From NCBI GenBank assembly GCA_050115495.1, contig JASFQK010000014.1, positions 32,001-96,000 of the forward strand: a stretch of DNA of 64,000 bases, read 5' to 3'. A program made the position numbers and the translations under genes. Positions 8,122 to 20,099 of the stretch are shown here, one piece after another. Position 1 is the first letter of the stretch. The number at the start of each line of letters is the position of its first letter. The notes under the pieces are model-generated. The model saw nothing but the letters and a program-made list of their open reading frames with translations, did no database searches and was not told where the DNA came from. The DNA is from Phycisphaerae bacterium. Lineage in GTDB: Bacteria; Planctomycetota; Phycisphaerae; UBA1845; Fen-1342.

Positions 8122-8394
8122 CCGTCACCCCGTCGGCGCATAATGTGGCATCACCAGCGGTCGGCGGCTCTGCCACGGAGGGTCACATCATGCACGTGTA
8201 CCGCGCCCAGGCCCATCAGTCCATCCCCACTGCCGAGACGGTCCTCGAGCCCTGAGCGCAGTCGAGGGGGTTGTTTTTTCAACACAACGGCCCCCGTCGT
8301 CGGCGTCACCCTCCGGCCGGACGCTGCCTCTCTGGAGGGGTTCACCTTGACGGGGGCCGAGCGTGCTCCGCCCATCGCTATATCCTTGTCGGCG

Positions 8395-8610
8395 TTACGG
8401 CAGGCGAGCCCTACCTCGCCCTGAATCCTCGTGTGCGATGCCCAGAATCAGCGCCACCCCCACCGCCAGCATGGCCAGCAGCGTGTCTTCCTTGACGGCC
8501 AGACCCACCTCCGCCGCGTACGCCGTCACGACCGTCGCCACCGCCACCTGCACCTTCCGACTCGCCAGCGGCCACAGCCACCGACGCCAGCCCGTCACCT
8601 TCGGCTCCAT
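8395..8610 (-). CDS. putative small 2-TM holin-like protein
   Basis: 71 aa; LASRKVQVAV followed by two hydrophobic helices and a basic tail; last gene of the head operon. Confidence 0.5.
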   Translation of the reverse strand: MEPKVTGWRRWLWPLASRKVQVAVATVVTAYAAEVGLAVKEDTLLAMLAVGVALILGIAHEDSGRGRARLP

Positions 8611-8624
8611 CGCGTTCTCCCGTT

Positions 8625-9110
8625 TCAATCCTGCCGCACCGAAGTAGCCGCCTCTTCGGCGACGCACTTCCCCGCCTCGGCGGCGACGCCCTCACGCACC
8701 CGATCCACACGCCGCAGCACGTCCTTCAGCAGCAGGTCCACCACCGCCTGGTCGCTGGCCAGCTTCGCATCGACGCCAACTACGCGCAGCGCCCGCGCTC
8801 GCTCATGCTGCACCGTCCAGAACTCCAGCAGGTCCCGCTCGTTCCACGCCGCACTTAGCGCCGCCTGACCGGCCGCCCCTATCGGCGTACCGGCCTCGGC
8901 GAGCCGCGCGACCAGATCGCGGAACAGCAGCACGCGCAGCGCTTCCTGCTGCTGTTCGAAGACGGCCTGCGACACTTCGTCCGCCCGCTGCTGCGCCGCC
9001 ATGGCGATGCGCAACGACTCGCGCGTGCACCCGCCGGCCAGCCCGCCGAGCAGAACCAGAACCACCAGCAATCCGCCGGCACCGCACCTCGACCGCTCGC
9101 ATCGGTTCAT
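8625..9110 (-). CDS. helical lipoprotein in phage-derived operon (spanin-like candidate)
   Basis: LLVVLVLLGGLAGGC lipobox; alpha-helical body; ATGA overlap with upstream gene. Confidence 0.6.
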   Translation of the reverse strand: MNRCERSRCGAGGLLVVLVLLGGLAGGCTRESLRIAMAAQQRADEVSQAVFEQQQEALRVLLFRDLVARLAEAGTPIGAAGQAALSAAWNERDLLEFWTVQHERARALRVVGVDAKLASDQAVVDLLLKDVLRRVDRVREGVAAEAGKCVAEEAATSVRQD

Positions 9111-9421
9111 CCCACACCTCCCACCAGGCTCAGCAACCGCACGGCGCACACCACACCGTCGCGCCACTTCTCCGCCGCCACCGCTTCCGCCAGCCGCTGG
9201 GCCGTATCCCGCACCTCTTCGTGCGCAAGCCACCCTCCGGCCGGCGTATCCCGCGGCAGCTCCGCCGTCGTGTAATCCCGTGTCGTCGGCGTCTGCGCCG
9301 CCTGCCACCGCTGCCCCTCAATGAGCAGCGCATCGATCACATGCCGCGCCGCCGTCACGAACGCCCGCGCCGTCCCCGCGTCCACATTCTTCACCAACGT
9401 CTCAAGATCCATCACCGCCAT
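9107..9421 (-). CDS. hypothetical protein in phage-derived operon
   Basis: Clean ORF with GGAGG RBS; hydrophobic C-terminus; coupled to the next gene. Confidence 0.65.
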   Translation of the reverse strand: MAVMDLETLVKNVDAGTARAFVTAARHVIDALLIEGQRWQAAQTPTTRDYTTAELPRDTPAGGWLAHEEVRDTAQRLAEAVAAEKWRDGVVCAVRLLSLVGGVG

Positions 9422-9440
9422 CCTCCGCCGAAAACGCCGC

Positions 9441-9476
9441 CCCTATGTCCCTTTGTTCCTTGACCCCTTTGCCCCT
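9441..9476. repeat. octamer short tandem repeat (TTGYYCCT / AGGRRCAA family)
   Basis: ATGTCCCT-TTGTTCCT-TGACCCCT-TTGCCCCT; same family at 1-16 and 15821-15860. Confidence 0.65.
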
Positions 9477-9481
9477 CCCAC

Positions 9482-9769
9482 CTAGACCAGCTCCAGATTC
9501 TCCACCTGCCTCGACAACCGCCCAAACCACTCCATCTCCGTCTGCCGATGCGAGCGCAGCTCTTCACGCAGCGCGACCAGCGCCTCCGTGTTATGCCGAA
9601 TCACGTCCAGCAGGTGATCGTTCAGCTCCACCACCTGGCTCGCCCGGCTGACCGCTTCACGCAGCGTGGTGGCCCCGCGCATCCGTTCCTGTCGCTCGAT
9701 CCACCACATGACGAAGAGCAATCCCGCCACGCCCAGCGACGGCAAATGTGCCAGAACGTCGCTGAGCAT
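9482..9769 (-). CDS. single-TM coiled-coil protein (BhlA/XhlA holin-like or i-spanin-like)
   Basis: N-terminal TM (LGVAGLLFVMWWI) then heptad-rich LLDVIRHNTEALVALREEL; TGATG overlap with upstream gene. Confidence 0.6.
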   Translation of the reverse strand: MLSDVLAHLPSLGVAGLLFVMWWIERQERMRGATTLREAVSRASQVVELNDHLLDVIRHNTEALVALREELRSHRQTEMEWFGRLSRQVENLELV

Positions 9770-10095
9770 CAGTCCACCAGCTCATACCAGACCGTGATCG
9801 TGTGCGCGCCGCTCGGCAGACCGAACGAATCCGTCAGCGCCAGCGCCTTGCCCCGGTCGGCGGACAGCCCGTAGCGCCGCCCGAACACGAGGTCGAGCGT
9901 GGTGTTCGCGGCCATCTGCATGTTCTTCAGCACGTCGCGCTCGTCGGGCCCGCTTGGGTCGCTGAGCAGCTTGAACGTCCCGCTCCCGCCCGTCGCCACG
10001 CACACCCGGGTGACCACGATGATCTTCCCCGGCACGCCCGGCACGAGCGTTTCCCTGAGCCTCGAACTCAAGTATTCGGCCATGAATACGGCCAT
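9769..10095 (-). CDS. small beta-rich putative virion structural protein
   Basis: GAAGGAG RBS; alternating beta pattern (LVPGVPGKIIVVTRVCV...GKALAL...TITVWYELV); follows the gp36-like gene. Confidence 0.6.
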   Translation of the reverse strand: MAVFMAEYLSSRLRETLVPGVPGKIIVVTRVCVATGGSGTFKLLSDPSGPDERDVLKNMQMAANTTLDLVFGRRYGLSADRGKALALTDSFGLPSGAHTITVWYELVD

Positions 10096-10129
10096 CGTCC
10101 GTTCTCCTTCCTGCGGGCCGGGGCGTCGC

Positions 10130-10567
10130 CTACAGCCCGTCCAGCTCCTGCGTCGCGAAACCCTGTCGCCCGCTGCGGTAGCGAGGCGTGTCCTCCGCCG
10201 GCGTGCTGCCCGTGGGCAGCTCCACAGCCCCGCTGGCCACCCGCTGCAACCACCGCCGCGCTTCATCACCCAGCACGCGCACCCGTCCCGGCAGGTCGTT
10301 CACAAACGGCGACGCCTGCCACGCCAGGAACTCCGCCAGGTCCAGCACGCGCGACCGCAGCAACGTCGCCAGCTCCGGATGTGCCACCAGGTCCACCGGC
10401 GTCGTGTACTGCCGGCAGAGATAGCTGTCCGCCTCGGCCTCGGCCTCCGCACAGATCTCGCCGGCGACGGTCGAGTTCGGCGTCGTCCCGTTGACCCGGT
10501 CGGTCAGCCGCCCGTACAGCGTCGCCCCGAGGCGGGCGTTCAAATCCGATGCGCTGATGTACGCCAT
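10130..10567 (-). CDS. Mu gp36-like head-tail adaptor (DUF1320 family)
   Basis: MAYISASDL..RLG...LTDR...AEAEADSYL..QY..P...ARRWLQRVASGAVEL; position after the major capsid gene. Confidence 0.85.
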   Translation of the reverse strand: MAYISASDLNARLGATLYGRLTDRVNGTTPNSTVAGEICAEAEAEADSYLCRQYTTPVDLVAHPELATLLRSRVLDLAEFLAWQASPFVNDLPGRVRVLGDEARRWLQRVASGAVELPTGSTPAEDTPRYRSGRQGFATQELDGL

Positions 10568-10685
10568 CGCCCTCGTCCTCCATCAGAGCCCGCCCGATGA
10601 GGCGGGGCGGCCGGACGTCGCTTGCAGCAGACGAACGTCACGGCCGGCCCTCGCCTCCGGCGCGGCTCCCGGTCTCGATCGGGGA

Positions 10686-11609
10686 TCAACTGAAGGTTAC
10701 GAGGCAGGCGTCCTGCCAGAAGCCATACCCGGCCTCGTGGATCGCCTTCACCCCGTACTGGTGCTGGTTCTCGTTGATTTCGAGTTCGCTGCCCTCGGCC
10801 AGGGCCTGGACCTGCACGGGCAGCTCTTCCTGGAAGATGAACGGCCGCGACTCTCCGTCGGTGCGGAACACGGCGAACTGCGTCGTCCACGTCAGCCGCG
10901 GGTTTGCGGCCCACTCGACCTGGAACGGCTCGCCGACCTTCAGCGGGTTCGCCGTCCGATCGGTGCGGTCGGCCAGGGCCATCATCGTCGCCGCCCAGAA
11001 CGGCATCGGCACCATGACGAGGAAGCTCCGCGCCGCCTCGTTCATCGGCTCGCCCTGGTCATCGCGGAAGCTCAGGACCTGCCCGATCGCCGCCACGATC
11101 CCCGCGAACATCTCCTCGTCGGTCGGCGCCGTCGCGGTGGCAGCGTCGCAGCTCAGCGAGTTGCTCTGCGAACCCGAGTCGCCTTCGCTGTGCGTCGTGT
11201 CGAAGAACGCATTCCCGTCGTAGCAGGCCTCGCTCTCCCCGCTCAGCAGGAGAGCCGTCAGCAGCTTGTTCGGATGCGTGGCCACCCGGCGGGCCATCTC
11301 GTTCACCCGCACCATGATCTGGCCGGTCTTGTCCCGCCGCTGCTCGTCGGCGTCGACGCGAATGGTCGACTCCCACACCTTGTTCACGATGGTCACGCCG
11401 CTGGCCCGCAGCGGGCGCACCTTGCGACCGCCCTGCCACTCCCGCACCTGCGGCACCATGCCCAGCCAGCGGTACGTCTCCGCTTCCTGCGTGCTCACGA
11501 AATGCATCGCGAGCTTCGTCCACCACGCGCTCTGGGCGTATTCCTCGAGCCGCCGATAGAAGCGCCCGATGATCGCCCGAGACGTCAGCCCCGTATCCAC
11601 AATCGCCAT
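10686..11609 (-). CDS. Mu-like major capsid protein (gpT family)
   Basis: STQEAETYRWLGMVPQVREWQGGR, NKVWESTIRV, CYDGNAFFDTTH, RPFIFQ and GYGFWQ motifs; AAGGAG RBS. Confidence 0.93.
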   Translation of the reverse strand: MAIVDTGLTSRAIIGRFYRRLEEYAQSAWWTKLAMHFVSTQEAETYRWLGMVPQVREWQGGRKVRPLRASGVTIVNKVWESTIRVDADEQRRDKTGQIMVRVNEMARRVATHPNKLLTALLLSGESEACYDGNAFFDTTHSEGDSGSQSNSLSCDAATATAPTDEEMFAGIVAAIGQVLSFRDDQGEPMNEAARSFLVMVPMPFWAATMMALADRTDRTANPLKVGEPFQVEWAANPRLTWTTQFAVFRTDGESRPFIFQEELPVQVQALAEGSELEINENQHQYGVKAIHEAGYGFWQDACLVTFS

Positions 11610-11643
11610 CTGTCTCTCCTTGCACCCCTGAAAAGCCCCGTCG

Positions 11644-11720
11644 AAAAAGGGGACTGGCTCCGAGCCCCCAGGTTCCTAGTGCCGCCAAGACCGCCCGCGG
11701 CGAGGTGCCTGTCCCCTCTT
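11644..11720. repeat. host REP-like family C element inside the capsid operon
   Basis: AAAAAGGGGACTGGCTCCG...GGTGCCTGTCCCCTCTT, matching 1511-1620. Confidence 0.8.
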
Positions 11721-11802
11721 TCGCGCCGGCAACGCAACGGCTGCCGAGCTGAAGGCACTCTGTCATCCCTCGTCCGCCACAGGGGGCGGACGCTACGGCG
11801 TC

Positions 11803-12543
11803 CTACGCCGCGATGTCCCGACTCAGAATGATCCACTCGCTCCCCGTGCACAGCAGGTGCACGCAGTCGTAGCGGGCGTCCATCGCCGCGTACGTGGCCG
11901 AGTTGTCGATCGTCTCGGCGGCGTTGCCGTCGAGCGTGATCGCCGCGGCGTCGGCCGATGTCTTCACCACGCGCAGCCAGCCTCCGGCCCGCACCGTGGC
12001 GACCGGCGGCAGGGTCAGCGTCCGCGCCACCGTGTTCCCCATCAGCAGCACGCGGTTCATGTGGTCCAGCGTCAGCGTGTGGTTGGCGTCGCTCAGCACG
12101 AGCGCCGGCCGCCCTTCCAGCACGCCGCTGAGCGCCGCGATCGGCTGGCAGCGGACGCGGGCCACGCCGCTACCGTCCGTGCCGACGATGCGCCCGACGC
12201 GCGAGTTCCCCGCCGGCGTGAGCGTCAGCGTCTCGTCGTCGCTGGCGTAGATGTCCTTGCCGACGTCGCCGAGGACGACGCCCGTCAAGGTGTGCACGAC
12301 ATCGATGCCCTGGTGCAGGCGAACCGACACGCCGCCGGCGGTGTGGCCGGTTGCGGTGTTGTCCGCCGCCCGATAGGCGATGCCCAGAAACTCATCCCCG
12401 GCGACGAGCGGCCGGGCGTACCCGGTCGACCGATTCCGGCCCACGAAGGCGTTCCGGTAGATCTTCACGTCGTCATCCACCGGGACGTCGATCAACTCCG
12501 CCGACGCGTAATACGCCACATCCCGATCCGCACTGAGTGCCAT
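11803..12543 (-). CDS. Mu-like capsid decoration/cement protein fused to a C-terminal fibre-like domain
   Basis: N-terminal MALSADR..PV...KIY...GYARP...ADNT...DVGKDIYASDD...SRVGRI, in the slot between protease and MCP; extra TLTLPP...VVKTS...ETIDN...LLCTGSEW domain. Confidence 0.7.
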   Translation of the reverse strand: MALSADRDVAYYASAELIDVPVDDDVKIYRNAFVGRNRSTGYARPLVAGDEFLGIAYRAADNTATGHTAGGVSVRLHQGIDVVHTLTGVVLGDVGKDIYASDDETLTLTPAGNSRVGRIVGTDGSGVARVRCQPIAALSGVLEGRPALVLSDANHTLTLDHMNRVLLMGNTVARTLTLPPVATVRAGGWLRVVKTSADAAAITLDGNAAETIDNSATYAAMDARYDCVHLLCTGSEWIILSRDIAA

Positions 12544-12708
12544 GCCCGTTCTCCTGTGTCCTGCGATCCTCGTCCGGCCGGCAGTTCCGGCCGCACGCTT
12601 CCGTTCTGATTGCCGGCGGAGAAAGGGGACCGACGCCGCGCCCGACCGCCCTCGCCGTGGCCCACGCCAGACGCCCAGCGAGGGCCTGTCCCCTTCCTCA
12701 GCCGCCCG

Positions 12709-13848
12709 CTAGCGAATTCCGCTCAGCAGCACGCGGCCGCCCGCTACCGCCCGTGAGTACGCCGCCAAGTCTTCCGGCGTGACGCCCCACCGGCGAAACG
12801 TCTCGTCCTCGCGCCGCTGCTCGCGCGCCGTGTTTGCCACCGCCCCGCCGCGATCCCGCCGATCGAGAGCCTGCACGCGTCCCGGCGGCAGGATGACCGG
12901 CGCCCGCGTGAGGCGCTCTTCCGTCGCCGCCGCGTCGCGCAGGTAGTCCTCGCGCCAGTCCATGCTGGTGCTGTCGAGGATCTTGCCCTGCCGCAAGCCG
13001 CGTTCGACGAACGTGTCCGCCTCCTGCGTCGCGAGCCGCCGCCGCAGACGCGTGATTTCGGCTTCGGCCTCGGCCAGCGCCGGCGACAAGTCGTCTGCCG
13101 GCTCTTCCGCGCTGTCGTCCTCGTCGTCGAGGACGCTCTCGTCCGCGCCGCGGGCCGAGGCCGCCAACGGCGGAACGGCGCGCATCGCCGGATCGTTCGT
13201 CAGCGCCACGGGGCCGAGAGCGGCGAGGTCGCTGTGCTCCTCGTCCGTCCAGAAGATGACCGGCGAGAAGTAGCGGTACTCACCGCTGCGGAGCAGTTCG
13301 GCGGCGCGCTCGGTCCAGGTGACATCGATGGCCCAGAGGCCGTCGTCGCGGACTTCGAGTCCGCCGATCCAGCCCGCCGCCGGCCGCAACCCGTCGGCCC
13401 GCGTGTTGAAGCGATCGAAGCTCTGGTGTTCGTAGTCGATGGCGAGCTTTCGCCCGATGGATTCGAGCCAGCACTGGGCCGACTCGGCGTGGCGGCGCGT
13501 AAAGGTGAAATCGCCGCCGGCGCTGGCCCGTTCGACCTGCACCTGGCCGAACGGGATCAGCAGGAATTCGCGCACCGGCTCGCCGCCGGCCGCGGCCAGA
13601 CGCGTACATGCCAACAGCGAGCACGGACCGGCGGGCTGCTCGTCACTACCGACTTCCTGCGCGACTTCGAGCGCCGCGGCGCGGTCGGCGAGATCCGCCA
13701 GCACTTCACGCACGCGGCCCAGTTGCCCGGCCACGTCCTCCTGCACCAGCCCGGCCGCTTCGCGCAAACGCGTCAGAAGCTGCTCCCGCGCCACGTGCAC
13801 CAGCGGACTTGCCGTCTGCGTCCTGTCCTCGTTCACGGTTTGCTCCAC
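12709..13848 (-). CDS. Mu-like prohead protease I / scaffold (gpI)
   Basis: IDYEHQS, PAAGWI, WTERAAELLRSGEYRYFSPV and ALTNDPA motifs; acidic linker plus helical scaffold tail. Confidence 0.92.
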   Translation of the reverse strand: MEQTVNEDRTQTASPLVHVAREQLLTRLREAAGLVQEDVAGQLGRVREVLADLADRAAALEVAQEVGSDEQPAGPCSLLACTRLAAAGGEPVREFLLIPFGQVQVERASAGGDFTFTRRHAESAQCWLESIGRKLAIDYEHQSFDRFNTRADGLRPAAGWIGGLEVRDDGLWAIDVTWTERAAELLRSGEYRYFSPVIFWTDEEHSDLAALGPVALTNDPAMRAVPPLAASARGADESVLDDEDDSAEEPADDLSPALAEAEAEITRLRRRLATQEADTFVERGLRQGKILDSTSMDWREDYLRDAAATEERLTRAPVILPPGRVQALDRRDRGGAVANTAREQRREDETFRRWGVTPEDLAAYSRAVAGGRVLLSGIR

Positions 13849-13869
13849 GGCTGAAACCTCACTTTCTAC

Positions 13870-14394
13870 TCAGGCGGCCCCGCTCTGCCGGGCTTGCGAC
13901 CGCCCCGCCCGACCACCGGCGCCGTTTCCGTTCCCATTCCCGTTCACGCCCGGCGACAGGCGCAGCGTCTCCACGTTCCCCTTGCCGTTGACCTGTCCTG
14001 TGCTGATGAACCCGTTCGCCTGGTAGAACCCGCGCGGATCGCCGGAGGTGATGTCCACCTTGGCTCGCACTTCGGTCGCCCGGCTGATTTGCAGCAGCAT
14101 GCTGCCGATGTGCAGGCCGCGATACGCCGGATGAACCAGCAGATTCACGAGCCGATGCCCGCGGGTCGTCACCGCCGCCCCGACGAGCACGCCGTCGAGC
14201 TCGGCGACGTACACCTGGTGGTACGGCCCACCGACGATCTCCGCCAACTGACCACGGCGGAAGAAGTAATCCCGCCGCAGGAAGACGTCGTAGAAGAACT
14301 GGAGCGGGGAGACGTCGCTCGACTCCGCCCGGCGGAGCACCAATCGCGCCGGACCGTCCGTTTCGTGAGCGTGCTGCGGATCGTCATGATTCAT
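13870..14394 (-). CDS. GNAT family acetyltransferase
   Basis: VAELDGVLVG, LLVHPAYRGLHIGSMLL (acetyl-CoA motif A) and GFYQANGF; ATGA overlap with the portal stop. Confidence 0.85.
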   Translation of the reverse strand: MNHDDPQHAHETDGPARLVLRRAESSDVSPLQFFYDVFLRRDYFFRRGQLAEIVGGPYHQVYVAELDGVLVGAAVTTRGHRLVNLLVHPAYRGLHIGSMLLQISRATEVRAKVDITSGDPRGFYQANGFISTGQVNGKGNVETLRLSPGVNGNGNGNGAGGRAGRSQARQSGAA

Positions 14395-15671
14395 GACTGA
14401 CGCCCCCCGTTCAGAACCGGCTCATCGCCGCGGGCTTCGGGGATGCCGAGCGCCCGGTGCACCCACTGCCGCGGCACGGCGAGGCCGAGATCGTTCACGG
14501 CCACCGCCAGCACATCCGCGAGCACCTTCGTGTCCACCGATTGCACCAGCGACCGCCGCAAGGTCGGCACTGCCACGCCCTCGCCGAAACGAGCCCGCAC
14601 CAACGGCGTGAGCAGATCACGGCGAATCGTGCGGCTCTCGGCAGCGATGTCGTTGACGAGCAGATCCTCGCGAACACGGTCGTGCACCTCGGCCGCCGCC
14701 CGCGAGCCCGATTGCCGTAGATCGGTAGTCAGGTGCTGGCCGAGCCAGAGGATGGTGACTTCGGTGTTACAGTATTCCTGAAGCGGTTCGTACGGCCGCT
14801 CGCCCTTGCTGCCGTCGACAAAGTGGAGTTCGACGTTCTTGGAGAACGCCGCCACGGCGTCGCTGCTGAGGGCGTCGAGCATCCGCAGCAGCTCCTGCTT
14901 GTCGGCCTCGGGCAGACCGGGCTCGAAGCGGGCGACGCGCAGGGGCATGCCGGCGATCTGCGAGAACGTCAGCCAGTCCTTAAAGCTCAGGTTCTGGGCG
15001 AGGAAGAGCACCGCCGACGCTCGCAGCAGACCGCCTTCGAAGTGACGGCCGGCGACGGGCTGCGGCTGGTGAACGATCCACTTGTTGGGCTGTTCGTCGA
15101 GGGCGACGCCGACGTCCGGTCGCTCGGCCGTGAGGACGCGCAGGCGCCAGGGCTCCTGCGGATCGCCGACGAGGCGGCCGTGCGGGACGGGCACGAGGTC
15201 GACGAGTTGGCCGGCCTCCCAGATGAGCTCGACCGCCGCGACGCCGGTCGCAATGGCGGACGCGAGGTGATCGAGGATTTCGGTGAAGTTGTCTAGTTGG
15301 GCGAGCGTCTCGCGGCAGAAGTCGGGGGCGCCGGTGGCGTCGGGTGACGCGTCCGCCGACGGCAGGATTTCCCAGTCGAGGCCGGTGAGGGCGAGTCGGC
15401 GGGTCTGCTCGACGGCGGCGAGGCGCGGCCACTTCTGCAGCATCTCGCGGAAGATCTCGAATTGGGCCTGGGGCCAGCCGGCGTCGGCGGCCTGGAGGCA
15501 GGCGACGAGGCGCTGGGGCGTGAGGCCGCGGGAGGGATACGTGTGCTGATTGTCGGCCCGCCAGGGACGGATCACGCGGCCGGGGCTGTCCGCCTCGCGG
15601 GGTCCGCGGGGCAGGAGCGAGCCGAGGGCCCGGAACAGGCCGGCGAGGACGTGCTGTGCGGGGTGTGCCAC
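14391..15671 (-). CDS. Mu gp29-like portal protein (DUF935)
   Basis: YPSRGLTPQRL...ADAG, RRLALTGLDWEI, AAVELIWE, GMPLRVARF, LGQHLTT, AEVHDRVREDL; AGGAG RBS. Confidence 0.92.
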   Translation of the reverse strand: MAHPAQHVLAGLFRALGSLLPRGPREADSPGRVIRPWRADNQHTYPSRGLTPQRLVACLQAADAGWPQAQFEIFREMLQKWPRLAAVEQTRRLALTGLDWEILPSADASPDATGAPDFCRETLAQLDNFTEILDHLASAIATGVAAVELIWEAGQLVDLVPVPHGRLVGDPQEPWRLRVLTAERPDVGVALDEQPNKWIVHQPQPVAGRHFEGGLLRASAVLFLAQNLSFKDWLTFSQIAGMPLRVARFEPGLPEADKQELLRMLDALSSDAVAAFSKNVELHFVDGSKGERPYEPLQEYCNTEVTILWLGQHLTTDLRQSGSRAAAEVHDRVREDLLVNDIAAESRTIRRDLLTPLVRARFGEGVAVPTLRRSLVQSVDTKVLADVLAVAVNDLGLAVPRQWVHRALGIPEARGDEPVLNGGRQS

Positions 15672-15991
15672 GGTCGTCTCTCCTGGTGGGCCAGTCGGCG
15701 GCGTGCCGCGGCCTCACACGAGAAAGGATAGCACGAGAAGATAGGAATGCTAGGATACCCGGTTGGTTTGTCGTGGGCTGGCGTGGATTGCGCTGTTCTG
15801 GCGGGGATTGGTTGGGGGGAAGGAGCAGAGGGGCAGAGGAACAAAGGAGCAAAGGGGACTGCGGTCGGGAGCGGGTTGGCGGAGGGGGCGGTTGTTGGCG
15901 ATCGACGGCCGACACGGAGGTCGGCCGCTACGTTGCGCGGCGAGCGTCGCTCGGTATTCGACGTCGGCCACGGGGGGCCGACGCTACGGGG

Positions 15992-16074
15992 TGTGGCATG
16001 CCGAAGCGTAGCGCCGGCATGTCCTTCGCTCGCGTCAAGGAAGACATGCCGGCGCTACGCTTCGGCATGCCACA
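15992..16074. repeat. long palindromic REP/MITE-like family A
   Basis: GTGGCATGCCGAAGCGTAGCGCCGGCATGTC, loop, then its reverse complement; variants at 20202-20285, 24443-24527, 28000-28087, 35610-35697 and a half copy at 52927-52958. Confidence 0.85.
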
Positions 16075-17904: not shown

Positions 17905-19305
17905 TCAGGCGAACAGACGCCAGCCGGCGGCCACTGCGGCGCAAACGACGAGGGCCAGTGCGAGCGGCATGAGGTTCGACCATAACGTCCACTTCACGCT
18001 GCGCGTCTCGCGGTAGATGGTCCACGTCGCCGTGGCGCAAGGGAAATGCAGCAGCGAGAAGAGCATCATGCAGAAGGCGGTGAGGAGTGTCCAGCCGTGC
18101 TCGCGGAAGAGCGCGCCGGCTTCGGCCGCGTCGAGCTCGGTCATCTGGCCGCCGGCCAGGTAGGCCATGATGATCGTGGGGAGGACGATCTCGTTGGCGG
18201 GCAAGGCGATGAAGAAGGCGAGCAGGAGCACACCGTCGAGGCCGAACCACCAGGCAACCGGATCGAGCCAGCCGGTGAGGTGGGCCATGATGCTGGCGCC
18301 GCCGACGTGGACGTTGCCGAGCAGCCAGATCACGCCGCCGGCGGGTGCGGCCGTTACGCAGGCCCGTGCGAGCACGAAGATGGTGCGGTCCATGATCGAG
18401 CGGTGGATCACGCGGAGGATGGCCGGTCGGCGATAAGGCGGTAATTCGAGGTAGAAGTGGCTCGCTTCGCCGCGAAGGACGGTGCCGGACAGCGCGCGGC
18501 AGGCCAGGAACGTGACGATCACGCCGAGCAGGCAGACGCCGGCGACGCAGGCTGTGGCGAGGACGCTGCGCCAGGCGGGTGGGGCGAGCGGGGCGACGAA
18601 GACGGTCGCAATGAGGATGACCGTCGGCCAGCGGCCGTTGCAGAGGACGAAGTTGTTGGTGACGATCGCGAGCAGGCGTTCGCGCGGCGATTCGATGATG
18701 CGGCACGCCGTCACACCCGCCGCATTGCAGCCGAAACCCATGGCCATGGTCAGGGATTGCTTGCCGTGGGCGCCGGCCCAGCGGTACAGGCGGTCGAGGT
18801 TGAAGGCGATACGCGGCAGGTAGCCGACGTCCTCCAGCAGCGTGAAGATCGGGAAGAAGATCGCCATCGGCGGCAACATCACGGAGATGACCCAGGCCAG
18901 GCCGCGGAATACGCCGTGCACCAGGAAGCCGGTCAGCCACCAGGGTGCGCCGACGGCGTTCATTCCCGCGGCAAGCTGGTCGTGGACCCAGAAGAGGCCG
19001 GTCGCCAGCCACTGGCTCGGCACGTTGGCACCAGTGATCGTCATCCAGAGGACGCCGGCGAGGAGCAGCAGCATCGTCGGGAAGCCGGCCCAGCGGCTGG
19101 TGAGGATCTTGTCGGCGAGGAGGTCCCAGTCGATGTGGCCCTTGCCGGTGACGTGGATGGAGGCGCCGGCGATTTCCTCGGCGCGGGTGTAGAGCGAGGC
19201 GGCGATGCGGTCGTGCACGCCGGTGCCGAGCTTGTCGCGCAGCTCGTCAGCGCGGGTCACGACGGCGGGCCAGCCACCGTCGGGTGGGGTCGGCGTGCGG
19301 GTCAT
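17905..19305 (-). CDS. feoB: ferrous iron transporter FeoB, membrane (Gate) half
   Basis: LLEDVGYLPRIAF, MGFGCNA, FYLELPPYRRP and LLHFPC motifs. Confidence 0.9.
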   Translation of the reverse strand: MTRTPTPPDGGWPAVVTRADELRDKLGTGVHDRIAASLYTRAEEIAGASIHVTGKGHIDWDLLADKILTSRWAGFPTMLLLLAGVLWMTITGANVPSQWLATGLFWVHDQLAAGMNAVGAPWWLTGFLVHGVFRGLAWVISVMLPPMAIFFPIFTLLEDVGYLPRIAFNLDRLYRWAGAHGKQSLTMAMGFGCNAAGVTACRIIESPRERLLAIVTNNFVLCNGRWPTVILIATVFVAPLAPPAWRSVLATACVAGVCLLGVIVTFLACRALSGTVLRGEASHFYLELPPYRRPAILRVIHRSIMDRTIFVLARACVTAAPAGGVIWLLGNVHVGGASIMAHLTGWLDPVAWWFGLDGVLLLAFFIALPANEIVLPTIIMAYLAGGQMTELDAAEAGALFREHGWTLLTAFCMMLFSLLHFPCATATWTIYRETRSVKWTLWSNLMPLALALVVCAAVAAGWRLFA

Positions 19306-20099
19306 GTGTACTCCCCCCGGCCGCCCGTCGCGATGAGCTGCCGCAGTTCGCCCGTTGCGACCATCTCGCGCATGCGTTCGTCGCCGGCGAGGAGGCGGAG
19401 GGCGATCCAGCGGGCGCACTTCAGGCCGGGCAGCGATGCGGTCAGCATGGCGGCGAGTTCGGCGACGGCGGGTTCGAGCTCATTGTCGAACTCGAGGCGG
19501 ATCGGTTGGGGCGTGCTGCGGCCGGCGGCAATCTCGTGCACGTGGTTGATCAGGTGATCGAGCCCCTGCCCCCGGCGAGCGGCCGTCGGCACGACCGGCA
19601 CGCCGAGCTCCTCTTCGAGCACGCGGGCTTCGAGAGCGATCTTCTTGCGGTTCGCCTCGTCGATGAGATTGGCGCAGACGACGACGCGGTCTGTGATTTG
19701 CAGGATTTGCAGGGCGAGGCCGAGGTTGCGTTCGAGGACGGTCGCGTCGCAGACGACGATCGTGCAGTCGGGGTTGCCGAAGAGGATGAAGTCGCGGGCG
19801 ACCTGCTCGTCGATGCTGTCGGCCAGGAGCGAATATGTGCCGGGAAGGTCGACGAGCTTGAACGTGGAGCCGGCGTGCTCGAAGGAGCCCTCGGCGCGGG
19901 CGACGGTCTTGCCGGGCCAATTGCCGGTGTGCTGGCGGAGGCCGGTGAGGTGGTTGAAGACGGTGCTCTTGCCCGTGTTGGGGTTGCCGGCGAGGGCGAC
20001 GACGAAATCGTGCCGTCCGCCGATCGTCAGGGCGACGGCTGACGGAGACTCCGCCGAGGGACGACCACTGCACGAACCGCAATCGGGCACGCCTGGCAC
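19302..20099 (-). CDS. feoB: FeoB N-terminal small GTPase half
   Basis: GNPNTGKST, GNWPGKTV, DLPGTYSL, NLIDE. Confidence 0.92.
   Translation of the reverse strand: MPGVPDCGSCSGRPSAESPSAVALTIGGRHDFVVALAGNPNTGKSTVFNHLTGLRQHTGNWPGKTVARAEGSFEHAGSTFKLVDLPGTYSLLADSIDEQVARDFILFGNPDCTIVVCDATVLERNLGLALQILQITDRVVVCANLIDEANRKKIALEARVLEEELGVPVVPTAARRGQGLDHLINHVHEIAAGRSTPQPIRLEFDNELEPAVAELAAMLTASLPGLKCARWIALRLLAGDERMREMVATGELRQLIATGGRGEYT

What the first reader, a model, noticed from the sequence alone, without database searches (positions are those of the whole stretch)
8395..15671. Stand-alone Mu-like head-only operon: candidate domesticated tailless capsid, GTA-like particle or nanocompartment
Seen: 11 intact co-oriented ORFs with strong RBSs and three start/stop overlaps. 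The order is portal, GNAT, protease/scaffold, decoration-fibre fusion, major capsid, gp36 adaptor, small beta protein, then four small genes. The operon is bounded directly by REP clusters and ordinary host genes. Established: in Mu-like phages the portal is immediately preceded by terminases (gp27/gp28) and followed by gpF/gpG, and gp36 is followed by gp37 and the tail sheath/tube/baseplate genes. MuA/MuB and the repressor are also required. None of these is recognisable in the window. Inference: clean loss of packaging, tail and replication genes with no pseudogene debris looks like selection for a capsid shell. Candidate roles are a multi-locus gene transfer agent, a tail-borrowing head, or a protein/nucleic acid compartment in a planctomycete.
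Basis: partly seen in the sequence, partly recalled or inferred. Interest (0 to 1): 0.92.

Follow-up and report, generated by a model that had tools for sequence, protein, structure and literature searches.

The report
Inherited tailless phage capsid operon
A whole family of planctomycete bacteria has kept, for a very long time and under strong selection, the head-building genes of a Mu-like phage without the DNA-packaging motor or a tail, which suggests that the bacteria have put a virus shell to a use of their own.

Summary
On the minus strand at 8395-15671 lie 11 intact co-oriented genes: Mu portal, GNAT, gpI protease/scaffold, cement-fibre protein, gpT capsid, gp36 adaptor, a jelly-roll protein and four small genes.

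The operon is not a stray remnant.
- The portal is intact in 66 of 72 genomes of the window's Phycisphaerae family, covering 38 of 40 genera.
- Gene order is kept in 52 loci.
- The head-gene tree follows host genera and the RpoB tree.
- dN/dS is 0.04-0.43 for every gene.
- A dedicated promoter box is conserved and occurs once in the genome.

The matching large terminase sits next to the portal in 181 of 207 genomes of sister families. It is found in only 5 of 71 genomes of this family. No conserved tail genes were found in the five near-complete family genomes searched.

The last three small genes have homologues at the start of the late operon of a real Mu-like prophage. They can persist without the head genes.

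Best reading: a domesticated, terminase-less, tailless capsid-forming operon. What the particle carries or does remains unknown.

The parts
15721..15757 (-). Dedicated promoter/operator box. It has two CTAG-containing repeats (family consensus atTTCTAGAcwTtCTAg), then an extended -10-like GnGCTATgCTT. It lies about 85 nt upstream of the portal start.
   Evidence: An automated filter found the box in 35 of 53 family upstream regions, and a stricter regex in 33 of 53. A PWM built from 31 of these sites scores 39.6 here, against 21.2 for the next best site in the 5.97-Mb genome. CTAG is rare in this genome: 1773 sites.
15672..15720 (-). 5' leader with a GC-rich inverted repeat and the ribosome-binding site (CCAGGAGA) of the portal gene.
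   Evidence: Read directly from the sequence. GC-rich inverted repeats just before the ribosome-binding site are visible in most of the 32 family leaders printed. This was not tested statistically.
14391..15671 (-). Portal protein (Mu type, 426 aa). It lacks the MuF domain that is fused to the portal in a related prophage.
   Evidence: PF06074 1.5e-72 and phrog_113 1.8e-73. It is the only Portal_Mu in the genome. In the G265 prophage the portal is an 809-aa Portal_Mu+Phage_Mu_F fusion.
13870..14394 (-). GNAT acetyltransferase, translationally coupled to the portal (4-nt overlap). It sits where MuF sits in Mu-like phages.
   Evidence: PF13508 3.7e-11. Present in 52 of 52 family loci. Its family profile finds no homologue in 80 viral and 40 sister-family loci. 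The closest solved chain is a protein acetyltransferase at a weak E-value of 0.0028.
12709..13848 (-). gpI-type head maturation protease fused to a scaffold region.
   Evidence: PF10123 3.3e-35 and phrog_328. The motifs DYEHQ (H141), S195 and ALTN are identical in 57 of 57 aligned sequences.
11803..12543 (-). Cement/decoration protein (residues 1-131) with a C-terminal extension of about 110 aa, possibly fibre-like.
   Evidence: phrog_1731 9.4e-20, and phrog_4209 (tail fibre) at 0.0085. Sister-family homologues hit Phage_cement_2. The C-terminal half is missing in five genera (g10, g12, g43, g46, g17), consistently within each genus.
11610..11802 (-). Structured spacer between the cement and capsid genes. 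It holds one REP-like hairpin and a terminator-like hairpin.
   Evidence: Repeat family D1 copy at 11771-11801. Terminator-like site at 11669-11649. Fold.
10686..11609 (-). Major capsid protein (Mu gpT family, HK97-type by family membership).
   Evidence: PF10124 5.8e-43 and phrog_371 2.9e-52. Family identity is 66-82%. dN/dS is 0.04-0.18.
10130..10567 (-). gp36 head-tail adaptor / head completion protein.
   Evidence: PF07030 6.5e-14 and phrog_195 1.4e-17. Found in 45 of 52 family loci; the other 7 are cut by contig ends.
9769..10095 (-). s7: an accessory 108-aa jelly-roll protein, possibly a second decoration protein or knob.
   Evidence: AF2 model with pLDDT 95.2 and eight strands. Foldseek hits include the phage KHP40 cement protein (TMq 0.56), C1q heads and CBM4. 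ESM Atlas places it nearest viral clusters at TM 0.94. It is the next ORF after gp36 in 23 of 43 loci inspected.
9482..9769 (-). s8: small protein with an N-terminal membrane helix (invariant GLLFVMWW.ERQER) and a coiled coil.
   Evidence: Alignment A5 has 34 rows and 64% column identity. Weak PHROG hits to Rz-like spanins occur in 7 of 33 orthologues, to phrog_32121 in 18 of 33, and in the window protein at E 0.025.
9107..9421 (-). s9: small helical protein with a hydrophobic C-terminus, function unknown.
   Evidence: Found in 42 of 52 loci. No family hit. A homologue stands in the G265 Mu-like prophage late operon.
8625..9110 (-). s10: lipoprotein (lipobox LAGGC). The mature part begins CTRES and forms a long two-helix hairpin.
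   Evidence: The lipobox and conserved mature N-terminus are seen in 38 orthologues. The AF2 model has pLDDT 87.5 with helices 3-45 and 52-133. The profile finds it in 63 of 71 family genomes and 2 of 207 others. Its 332 homologues are all unnamed.
8395..8610 (-). s11: 71-aa protein with two hydrophobic segments (holin-like shape).
   Evidence: Found in 40 of 52 loci. Weak holin hits occur in 3 of 35 orthologues, and in the window protein at E 0.02. A two-helix counterpart follows the s10 homologue in the G265 and G237 loci.
15906..16074 (.). REP-like hairpins and a 32-nt perfect inverted repeat, upstream of the promoter. These are host repeats, probably not part of the system.
   Evidence: Genome-wide count of 181 for the loose REP pattern.

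Best explanation
The operon is a domesticated Mu-like head module. It was fixed in the ancestor of one Phycisphaerae family, has been inherited vertically since, and is kept by purifying selection.

Proposed course of events (all inferred, none shown):
1. The dedicated promoter is de-repressed.
2. The portal nucleates a procapsid built from gpT capsid protein and the gpI scaffold-protease.
3. The protease matures the procapsid.
4. The cement(-fibre) protein decorates it, and where present so does the s7 jelly-roll protein.
5. gp36 caps the portal vertex.

The family has lost, or never kept, the cognate terminase, the neck and tail genes and the transposition genes. The particle is therefore tailless and is not filled by a motor of its own.

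The co-transcribed membrane proteins s8 to s11 include three (s9-s11) with homologues at the start of the late operon of a Mu-like prophage. These four most likely act on the cell envelope to release the particles.

Shown: the gene set, its conservation, vertical descent, selection, and the missing terminase.
Inferred: particle formation, emptiness, release, and any cargo (the portal-coupled GNAT is a candidate).
For: 1. Gene identities.

2. Distribution. The portal is found in 66 of 72 family genomes, in 43 of 46 high-quality ones and in 38 of 40 genera. It is nearly always a single copy with no stop. The MCP is found in 22 of 24 family genomes.

3. Gene order is the same in 52 loci. Portal and GNAT are present in 52 of 52, and s9 in 42 of the 45 loci that have gp36.

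4. Vertical descent. Eight of 11 multi-member genera are monophyletic, and none is contradicted by a starred branch. The six-protein head tree shares 4 of 10 bipartitions with RpoB, all the well-supported ones; this was reached in 2 of 5000 shuffles. Flank synteny decays gradually.

5. Selection. Fifty-five gene-pair estimates of dN/dS lie between 0.041 and 0.429, small genes included. The protease motifs are invariant in 57 of 57 sequences. Median p-distances are 0.25 for MCP and 0.17 for RpoB.

6. Missing motor. The TerL profile matches 5 of 71 family genomes at 1e-30, against 181 of 207 in sister families; at E 0.01 it matches 8 of 72. None is found in the own genome. Three further terminase Pfam families and Baseplate_J were found in 0 or 1 of 5 near-complete family genomes.

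7. By contrast, true mobile phages are patchy. MuA-like transposases occur in 23 of 72 genomes at 23-38% identity.

8. A conserved, genome-unique promoter box.

9. s9-s11 homologues stand at the start of the late operon, upstream of the terminase genes, in a complete Mu-like prophage.
Against: - No expression or particle data exist.
- The Mantel correlation of RpoB and head-protein distances is weak: r 0.26 (236 of 2000 permutations as high) for MCP, and r 0.19 (423 of 2000) for portal.
- Two near-complete family genomes (G087, G085) lack portal and MCP yet keep s9-s11. Two others (G022, G044) keep the head genes but lack s8-s11. So the head part and the membrane part are separable, and the head part is dispensable in some lineages.
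- A portal and an adaptor under strong selection are hard to explain for a shell that never takes up DNA or joins a tail.
- No endolysin is recognisable, and the spanin and holin hits are weak (E 0.002-0.04).
- Pfam-based absence is imperfect. PF05876 missed the GpA-type terminase of the unrelated prophage on contig C34, which PHROGs found.
- dS is 0.25-1.34, close to saturation in some pairs.
Confidence: 0.6

Rival explanations
1. Trans-complemented capsid. The host-encoded heads are filled and given tails only when a Mu-like phage infects or is induced, using the phage's terminase and tails. The result would be interference with the phage (phage DNA ends up in host-made heads), transduction of host DNA, or both. 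This would be a chromosomally fixed counterpart of the capsid module of capsid-forming phage satellites.
For: - This reading explains why the portal and the gp36 adaptor stay under purifying selection (dN/dS 0.05-0.32) without a resident terminase or tail.
- Mu-like transposable prophages do occur in this family. MuA-like genes are in 23 of 72 genomes. TerL lies within about 10 kb of MuA in G014, G049, G072 and G085. TerL is multi-copy in G050.
- The own genome holds a compact Mu-like element whose gpI protease domain is 52% identical to the operon's.
Against: - Portals of the resident Mu-like prophages are only 26-35% identical to the operon's portal, so cross-fit with their terminases and tails is doubtful.
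- No small terminase, pac-redirecting or replication function is present.
- Defence and satellite systems are usually patchy and fast-evolving. This operon is fixed, single-copy and evolves only about 1.5 times faster than RpoB.
- Most family genomes carry no Mu-like prophage (49 of 72 have no MuA match).
Confidence: 0.2
2. Intracellular nanocompartment. The shell stays in the cell, like an encapsulin, and encloses a protein cargo such as the GNAT or other enzymes. The s8-s11 genes are merely neighbours with a separate envelope function.
For: - The shell, protease/scaffold and cement are kept without a DNA motor.
- The GNAT is universal in the family operon (52 of 52 loci) and is translationally coupled to the portal.
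- s9-s11 persist without the head genes in G087 and G085, and the head genes persist without s8-s11 in G022 and G044.
Against: - Encapsulins have no portal, adaptor or maturation protease.
- No conserved targeting peptide is evident. The GNAT C-terminus is variable: tblastn covers about 75-90% of it.
- s9-s11 follow the head genes in 42 of the 45 loci that reach that far, with small gaps or overlaps in the window. This suggests co-transcription.
Confidence: 0.12
3. Multi-locus gene transfer agent. The terminase and tail are encoded elsewhere in the same genome and work with this head cluster.
For: - RcGTA-type agents do have unlinked loci (recalled, not from a call).
- The own genome has a tape-measure protein, a major tail protein and a GpA-type terminase on contig C34.
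Against: - The C34 cluster is a complete, unrelated siphovirus-type module with its own lambda-family portal and its own capsid.
- Its terminase is strong in only about 25 of 72 family genomes, is often multi-copy, and is absent from the near-complete genomes G057, G007, G048 and G054, all of which carry the head operon.
- The cognate TerL is missing in 66 of 71 family genomes.
- Sheath was not found in the own genome, and Baseplate_J was not found in 5 of 5 near-complete genomes.
- The promoter box occurs once in the genome.
Confidence: 0.04
4. Cryptic prophage remnant with no host function, kept by chance or by linkage.
For: - It is clearly phage-derived and incomplete.
- It has been lost in a few lineages: G087, G085, G074 and G082 have neither portal nor MCP, although G074 and G082 are only 88% and 62% complete.
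Against: - Intact frames in 66 of 72 genomes across 38 genera.
- dN/dS of 0.04-0.43 in all genes.
- Invariant catalytic motifs.
- A conserved promoter.
- Congruence with the host tree.
Confidence: 0.04

Closest known systems
Head module of Mu-like transposable phages (Mu gp29 portal, gpI, gpT, gp36)
   Same: The same protein families appear in the same order: portal, gpI protease/scaffold, cement, gpT and gp36. A complete relative stands in a sister-family genome, G265.
   Different: There is no TerS/TerL, no MuF, no gp37, no tail and no MuA/MuB/repressor at the locus. A GNAT stands in the MuF position. The copy is fixed, single and vertically inherited across a family.
Gene transfer agents of the RcGTA type (Rhodobacterales)
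   Same: Both are phage structural gene clusters fixed in a bacterial lineage, inherited vertically, under purifying selection and flanked by host genes. That RcGTA has these properties is recalled, not from a call.
   Different: RcGTA keeps its large terminase and a tail and transfers DNA (recalled). Here the terminase and tail are missing in the family. The head proteins here are Mu-type rather than those of RcGTA's own head-gene lineage (the RcGTA side is recalled).
Order-wide TerL-plus-head cluster of the sister Phycisphaerae families
   Same: The two are related: portal 40-45% identical, protease about 33% and gp36 34-43%. The gene order is the same, and host genes flank the cluster in several loci. 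In the portal tree the two clades fall into one unresolved group.
   Different: The sister-family cluster keeps TerL (181 of 207 genomes) and three conserved downstream genes, including a gp37-like one. It has no GNAT and no s7-s11. Its capsid protein belongs to another clade than the window's.
Capsid-forming phage-inducible chromosomal islands (cf-PICIs)
   Same: Both are non-phage elements that encode their own heads but no tails. What cf-PICIs encode is recalled, not from a call.
   Different: cf-PICIs are mobile, patchy islands with integrase, replication and packaging genes (recalled). This operon has none of these and is immobile and family-wide.
Encapsulin nanocompartments
   Same: Both are host-kept shells built from a phage-type capsid protein without a DNA-packaging motor.
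   Different: As far as I recall, encapsulins lack a portal, an adaptor, a cement protein and a maturation protease, and they load cargo through targeting peptides. The encapsulin survey PMC8346489 was seen only as a search listing. All four proteins are present here, and no targeting peptide was found.

Membership tests
Mu-like transposable prophage | MuA/MuB transposition genes and a repressor linked to the structural genes | tested here: not met
   None lies in the parts of the 64-kb window that I annotated. MuA/MuB-like genes sit on another contig, C3, in a separate 11-kb element. The 52 family loci show no such genes next to the operon.
Mu-like transposable prophage | Terminase genes directly upstream of the portal | tested here: not met
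   A host zinc-ribbon membrane gene lies upstream of the portal. The TerL profile gives no match in the own genome and matches 5 of 71 family genomes.
Mu-like transposable prophage | Head proteins of the Portal_Mu, gpI, gpT and gp36 families in Mu order | tested here: met
Mu-like transposable prophage | Tail genes (gp37, sheath/tube or tape measure, baseplate) downstream of gp36 | tested here: not met
   Downstream lie s7-s11 and then host genes. Phage_sheath_1 gave no match in the own genome. Baseplate_J was found in 0 of 5 near-complete family genomes.
Gene transfer agent | Vertical inheritance and purifying selection in a host lineage | tested here: met
   The Mantel test on distances was not significant.
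Gene transfer agent | Own large terminase | tested here: not met
Gene transfer agent | Tail or other DNA delivery structure | tested here: not met
   The only tail genes in the own genome belong to an unrelated prophage that is patchy in the family.
Gene transfer agent | Packages and transfers random host DNA | not testable with these tools
   This needs particles and sequencing of their content.
Encapsulin | HK97-type shell protein without portal, protease or adaptor | tested here: not met
   Portal, gpI protease and gp36 are all present and conserved.
Encapsulin | Cargo protein with a conserved targeting peptide next to the shell gene | tested here: inconclusive
   The GNAT is always adjacent (52 of 52 loci), but its C-terminus is variable. 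No dedicated test was run.
Phage satellite (PICI / cf-PICI type) | Integrase, excision and replication module; mobile and patchy distribution | tested here: not met
   No such genes lie at the locus. The distribution is family-wide and follows the host tree.
Phage lysis cassette (holin, endolysin, spanins) for s8-s11 | Recognisable holin, muralytic enzyme and inner/outer membrane spanin pair | tested here: inconclusive
   The shapes fit. s11 has two hydrophobic segments, s8 has a membrane helix plus coiled coil, and s10 is a lipoprotein with a long helical hairpin. Homologues of s9-s11 stand at the start of the late operon of a Mu-like prophage, upstream of its terminase genes; that this is the usual place of phage lysis genes is recalled. 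However, family hits are weak: spanin in 7 of 33 orthologues, holin in 3 of 35. No endolysin was found.

The most novel reading that the evidence does not exclude
A new class of virus-derived cell structure: a portal-bearing but terminase-less and tail-less capsid. It is encoded by a single host-regulated operon and has been kept through the diversification of at least 38 genera. It would be neither GTA, satellite, tailocin nor encapsulin. The sister families would then carry the terminase-bearing stage (a candidate order-wide GTA-like agent) and this family a later exapted stage. That would give a natural series for how bacteria turn a phage head into an organelle or a secreted particle.
Probability: 0.4. 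Interest if true: 0.92.

Novelty: new variant of a known kind. Interest (0 to 1): 0.85.

Why it matters
Domesticated phage parts known so far are tails (tailocins, injection systems), whole small particles with a DNA motor (GTAs), or bare shells (encapsulins).

This is a head with portal, adaptor, protease and cement but no motor and no tail. It is fixed and selected in an entire bacterial family. That would be a further route of virus-to-host exaptation.

The case comes with a built-in comparison. Related clusters in the sister families still carry the terminase. The question of what a head is good for without DNA packaging therefore becomes directly testable by expression, microscopy and cargo analysis.

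The same data point to a possible GTA-like agent across a whole order of Planctomycetota. My full-text searches found no description of either one.

Tried and rejected
1. Expression. One search for sequencing runs listed 2 DNA holders and no RNA holder, so expression is untested. I did not lay reads.

2. Binding of s8 (residues 27-95) to s10 (2-118). The complex job gave no verdict (score 0.00). It says nothing either way.

3. A 43-nt imperfect inverted repeat brackets the head part in the window (9440-9482 and 15815-15857). I took it as a possible cassette border. It is not found in the other family loci (no match with E below 0.002). It is low-complexity sequence, so I dropped the idea.

4. 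Regulon hunt. The promoter PWM finds no second full site in the genome. The genes near the four best partial sites (all scoring at least 16.6) showed no obvious regulator.

5. Family-profile HMMs for GNAT and s7-s11 found nothing in 80 viral and 40 sister-family loci.

6. ESM Atlas for s9 gave only weak structural neighbours. NCBIfam named none of 15 proteins beyond two weak GNAT hits. The PDB sequence search of the cement protein gave no hit.

7. PHROG scan of small-gene orthologues. I gave 126 of the 141 references that I had: 33 s8, 36 s9, 22 of 36 s10 and 35 of 36 s11. The s10 references dropped began upstream of the lipobox. One s11 reference had an internal stop. s9 and s10 gave only stray hits to unnamed families.

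8. Earlier notes of this scan held nothing for this genome or this capsid protein.

9. Literature. Seven full-text searches found no paper on a Phycisphaerae capsid operon or GTA. I read passages of two papers (10.1101/2022.02.18.481119 and PMC12213060). Their GTA mentions concern Alphaproteobacteria or a reference list. All other papers were seen as listings only.

10. I first read the family operon as the sister-family cluster minus its terminase. The capsid tree does not support a simple version of that. The family's MCP is sister to 62 free viral contigs and is separated (support 100) from the sister-family clade. Those 62 viruses lack Mu-type portal, protease and gp36. The portal tree leaves the relation unresolved. 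The operon is therefore a mosaic, or it was captured separately.

Full report
**What is there.** The window is bases 32001-96000 of contig C14 of a 5.97-Mb, 85-contig, 92%-complete genome. Record titles of close relatives name them Phycisphaerae, Phycisphaerales or Planctomycetota MAGs.

On the minus strand, from 15671 down to 8395, lie eleven intact co-oriented genes:

| Gene | Coordinates |
|---|---|
| Mu-type portal | 14391-15671 |
| GNAT acetyltransferase | 13870-14394 |
| gpI protease/scaffold | 12709-13848 |
| cement protein with C-terminal extension | 11803-12543 |
| gpT major capsid protein | 10686-11609 |
| gp36 adaptor | 10130-10567 |
| s7 | 9769-10095 |
| s8 | 9482-9769 |
| s9 | 9107-9421 |
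| s10 | 8625-9110 |
| s11 | 8395-8610 |

Pfam and PHROG hits are strong for the six large genes. Three start/stop overlaps exist, and GGAG-type ribosome sites precede 8 or 9 of the 11 starts. Host genes flank both sides. REP-like hairpins and a 32-nt perfect palindrome lie upstream, and one REP copy sits between the cement and capsid genes. The only correction is that REP elements bound one side, not both.

**The rest of the genome.** There is one Portal_Mu and one gpT. No match was found to Terminase_6N or Phage_sheath_1. No match was found to the terminase that accompanies related portals elsewhere, by tblastn or by profile.

The genome is not phage-free, however.
- Contig C34 carries an unrelated siphovirus-type module. 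It has a GpA-type terminase, a lambda-family portal, a protease-capsid fusion, a cement protein, a head-tail joining protein, a major tail protein and a tape measure.
- Contig C3 carries a compact element of about 11 kb. It has a repressor-like gene, MuA- and MuB-like genes, and a paralogue of the gpI protease domain that is 52% identical to the operon's. It has no portal, capsid or terminase.
- The Pfam GpA_ATPase search missed the C34 terminase, which PHROGs found. Pfam-based absences should therefore be read with care.

**Distribution.** The capsid protein was found in 22 of 24 genomes of the same family at 66-82% identity. It was found in 11 of 16 genomes of ten other families of the order at 37-42%. 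The portal was found in 66 of 72 family genomes, 43 of 46 high-quality ones and 38 of 40 genera. It is almost always a single open frame at 59-71% identity.

I fetched 52 family loci, and the order of genes is the same in all of them.
- Portal and GNAT are present in 52 of 52 loci.
- gp36 is present in 45. The other seven loci are cut by contig ends.
- s9 is present in 42, s10 in 41, s11 in 40 and s8 in 33.
- An s7-like ORF follows gp36 in 23 of 43 loci inspected.
- Two loci that reach far enough (G022, G044) lack s8-s11.
- Flanking genes differ between loci but are shared within subsets, as expected for slow rearrangement around a fixed locus.

**Vertical descent.** A tree of portal+protease+capsid from 53 genomes recovers 8 of 11 multi-member GTDB genera as clades. 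The other three are not contradicted by any starred branch. The labels need 11 changes against a minimum of 10, with a shuffled mean of 22.5 and 0 of 200 shuffles as low.

For 13 genomes with RpoB, a six-protein head tree and the RpoB tree share 4 of 10 bipartitions, all the well-supported ones. At least 4 were shared in 2 of 5000 label shuffles.

Against this, Mantel tests on raw p-distances were not significant: RpoB against capsid r 0.26 (236 of 2000 permutations as high), and RpoB against portal r 0.19 (423 of 2000). Capsid and portal distances correlate strongly, r 0.73 (0 of 2000). I read this as a near star-like radiation with rate differences, but deep co-divergence is less firmly shown than shallow co-divergence.

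**Selection.** Fifty-five within-genus gene-pair estimates of dN/dS (NG86) lie between 0.041 and 0.429. The capsid gives 0.04-0.18 and the small genes s8-s11 give 0.07-0.34. Three pairs were skipped because merged HSPs held stops. dS is 0.25-1.34, so some pairs approach saturation. Median p-distance within the family is 0.17 for RpoB, 0.25 for the capsid and 0.36 for the portal. The protease motifs DYEHQ, S195 and ALTN are identical in 57 of 57 sequences, including sister families and the C3 paralogue.

**The missing motor.** In sister families a large terminase (Terminase_6N/6C, Walker A GKS intact, 71% column identity across six families) lies directly upstream of the portal.

A profile of it matched 181 of 207 genomes of the ten other families at E 1e-30 (f7 92 of 101, f2 44 of 49, f6 30 of 35, f3 6 of 7). 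It matched only 5 of 71 genomes of the window's family. At E 0.01 the family figure is 8 of 72. The five family matches are real Mu-like prophages. In four of them a MuA-like gene lies within about 10 kb, and G050 holds many copies.

In five near-complete family genomes, TerL_ATPase, Terminase_3, GpA_ATPase and Baseplate_J were found in 1, 0, 1 and 0 of 5. The C34-type terminase is strong in only about 25 of 72 family genomes. It is often multi-copy, and it is absent from the near-complete genomes G057, G007, G048 and G054, all of which carry the head operon. MuA-like transposases are patchy: 23 of 72 genomes at 23-38% identity. So mobile phages come and go in this family, while the head operon stays.

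**Origin.** The sister-family cluster is TerL, portal, protease, cement, capsid and gp36, followed by a gp37-like gene and two further conserved genes. In several loci host genes flank it, and two genomes of one family share its downstream neighbours.

The window's operon is related to this cluster: portal 40-45% identical, protease about 33%. It is not simply that cluster minus its terminase.
- Its capsid protein forms a clade (support 99) that is sister to 62 IMG/VR viral contigs, at up to 53% identity.
- That pair is separated (support 100) from the clade holding the sister-family clusters and 8 viral contigs.
- Those 62 viruses lack Mu-type portal, protease and gp36.
- In the portal tree the family clade (100) sits in an unresolved group (93) with the sister-family clade (97), one viral contig and a prophage.

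The operon is thus either a mosaic descendant of the order-wide cluster or a separate capture of a related phage. I could not decide which.

**Family-specific parts.** The GNAT stands where MuF stands in Mu-like phages; in the G265 prophage the portal is fused to a MuF domain. It has no homologue in 80 viral and 40 sister-family loci.

s7 folds with high confidence (pLDDT 95) as an eight-stranded jelly roll. It resembles a phage cement protein, C1q heads and carbohydrate-binding modules at TM about 0.5. It matches viral protein clusters in the ESM Atlas at TM 0.94. It has been lost many times, so it is accessory.

The other small proteins look like envelope proteins.
- s8 has an invariant membrane helix and a coiled coil.
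- s10 is a lipoprotein with a strongly conserved mature N-terminus and a long two-helix hairpin.
- s11 has two hydrophobic segments.
- Weak PHROG hits point to Rz-like spanins for s8 (7 of 33 orthologues) and to holins for s11 (3 of 35).

The s10 profile is found in 63 of 71 family genomes and in only 2 of 207 others. One of those two is a complete Mu-like prophage in G265. That prophage has an S24 repressor, MuA, MuB, TerL, a portal-MuF fusion, gpI, cement and capsid. In it, homologues of s9 and s10 and a two-helix protein like s11 stand at the start of the late operon, upstream of the terminase. From what I recall of Mu, this is where its lysis genes lie. So s9-s11 are phage late genes.

The head part and the membrane part are separable. 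G087 (99% complete) and G085 keep s9-s11 but have no portal or capsid gene. G022 and G044 show the reverse.

**Regulation.** About 85 nt upstream of the portal start, family loci share an AT-rich box in otherwise 68% GC DNA. It has two CTAG-containing repeats and then an extended -10-like element. The consensus is atTTCTAGAcwTtCTAg, seven bases, GnGCTATgCTTg. An automated filter found it in 35 of 53 upstream regions, and a stricter pattern in 33 of 53. Most of the remaining regions printed show a similar box by eye.

A PWM from 31 sites scores 39.6 at the operon and at most 21.2 anywhere else in the genome. The operon therefore has its own conserved promoter with an operator-like repeat. The regulator is unknown.

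**What it most likely does.** I commit to a domesticated head-forming operon. On de-repression it builds portal-containing procapsids, matures and decorates them and caps the portal. It does so without a motor or a tail of its own. The co-transcribed phage late membrane proteins probably release the particles.

My odds:

| Statement | Odds |
|---|---|
| The operon is selected and makes particles | about 0.75 |
| The full statement, including emptiness and release | about 0.6 |
| Rival: heads completed in trans by infecting Mu-like phages (interference or transduction) | 0.2 |
| Rival: intracellular compartment | 0.12 |
| Rival: multi-locus GTA | 0.04 |
| Rival: functionless remnant | 0.04 |

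The trans-completion rival best explains the selected portal and adaptor. It fits poorly with the 26-35% identity to resident prophage portals.

**Novelty.** Seven full-text searches found nothing on such an operon or on a GTA in Phycisphaerae. The closest known kinds are GTAs, capsid-forming satellites and encapsulins. Each fails at least one defining feature that I tested here. I file it as a new variant of phage domestication, with a fair chance (0.4) that it is a new kind of structure altogether.

Noticed in passing
L024, L026, L027, L029, L031 and L268 (sister-family loci); order-wide tallies: Sister families of the order carry a strongly conserved large terminase next to a Mu-type head cluster, in 181 of 207 genomes and mostly as a single copy. 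Three conserved genes follow it, one of them gp37-like. Host genes flank the cluster in several loci. It looks like a candidate order-wide GTA-like agent. My searches found no description of it.
   Followed up: partly
G000 contig C34:47001-66999 (L184): A siphovirus-type prophage module: GpA-type terminase, lambda-family portal, protease-capsid fusion, cement, head-tail joining protein, major tail protein and tape measure. Its terminase recurs at 77-85% identity, often in 2-5 copies, in about 25 of 72 family genomes. This is unusually conserved for a patchy, multi-copy element.
   Followed up: partly
G000 contig C3:180001-191600 (L265): A compact Mu-like element with a repressor-like gene, MuA, MuB, several unknown genes and a gpI protease/scaffold paralogue. 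The paralogue's protease domain is 52% identical to the operon's, and its C-terminal half differs. The element has no portal, capsid or terminase. It may be a degraded prophage, or a satellite-like element that relies on heads made elsewhere.
   Followed up: partly
G050 contig C2: Ten matches to the Mu-type terminase profile are spread over one 4.8-Mb contig, three of them full length. This suggests an active or recently active transposable phage in that family member.
   Followed up: no
window 17905-20099: FeoB is read as two overlapping minus-strand ORFs in different frames. The N-terminal GTPase part is at 19302-20099 and the Gate/FeoB_C part at 17905-19419. This may be a frameshift, an assembly error or a natural split.
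   Followed up: no
whole genome: CTAG occurs only 1773 times in 5.97 Mb. That is roughly ten times fewer than base composition predicts, which makes the two CTAGs in the promoter box stand out.
   Followed up: no
L023 (G018) 8211-8879: Two tandem s7-like ORFs stand after gp36, in a locus where no s8 was detected.
   Followed up: no
family loci of genera g10, g12, g43, g46 and g17: The cement protein lacks the C-terminal, fibre-like half in these genera. The loss is consistent within each genus, so the extension is an accessory domain gained or lost along host lineages.
   Followed up: no
window 15815-15890 and 9440-9482: A pyrimidine-rich low-complexity stretch lies upstream of the promoter and its purine-rich counterpart lies between s8 and s9, on the coding strand. 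They are 77% complementary over 43 nt. The pair is not conserved in other family loci.
   Followed up: yes
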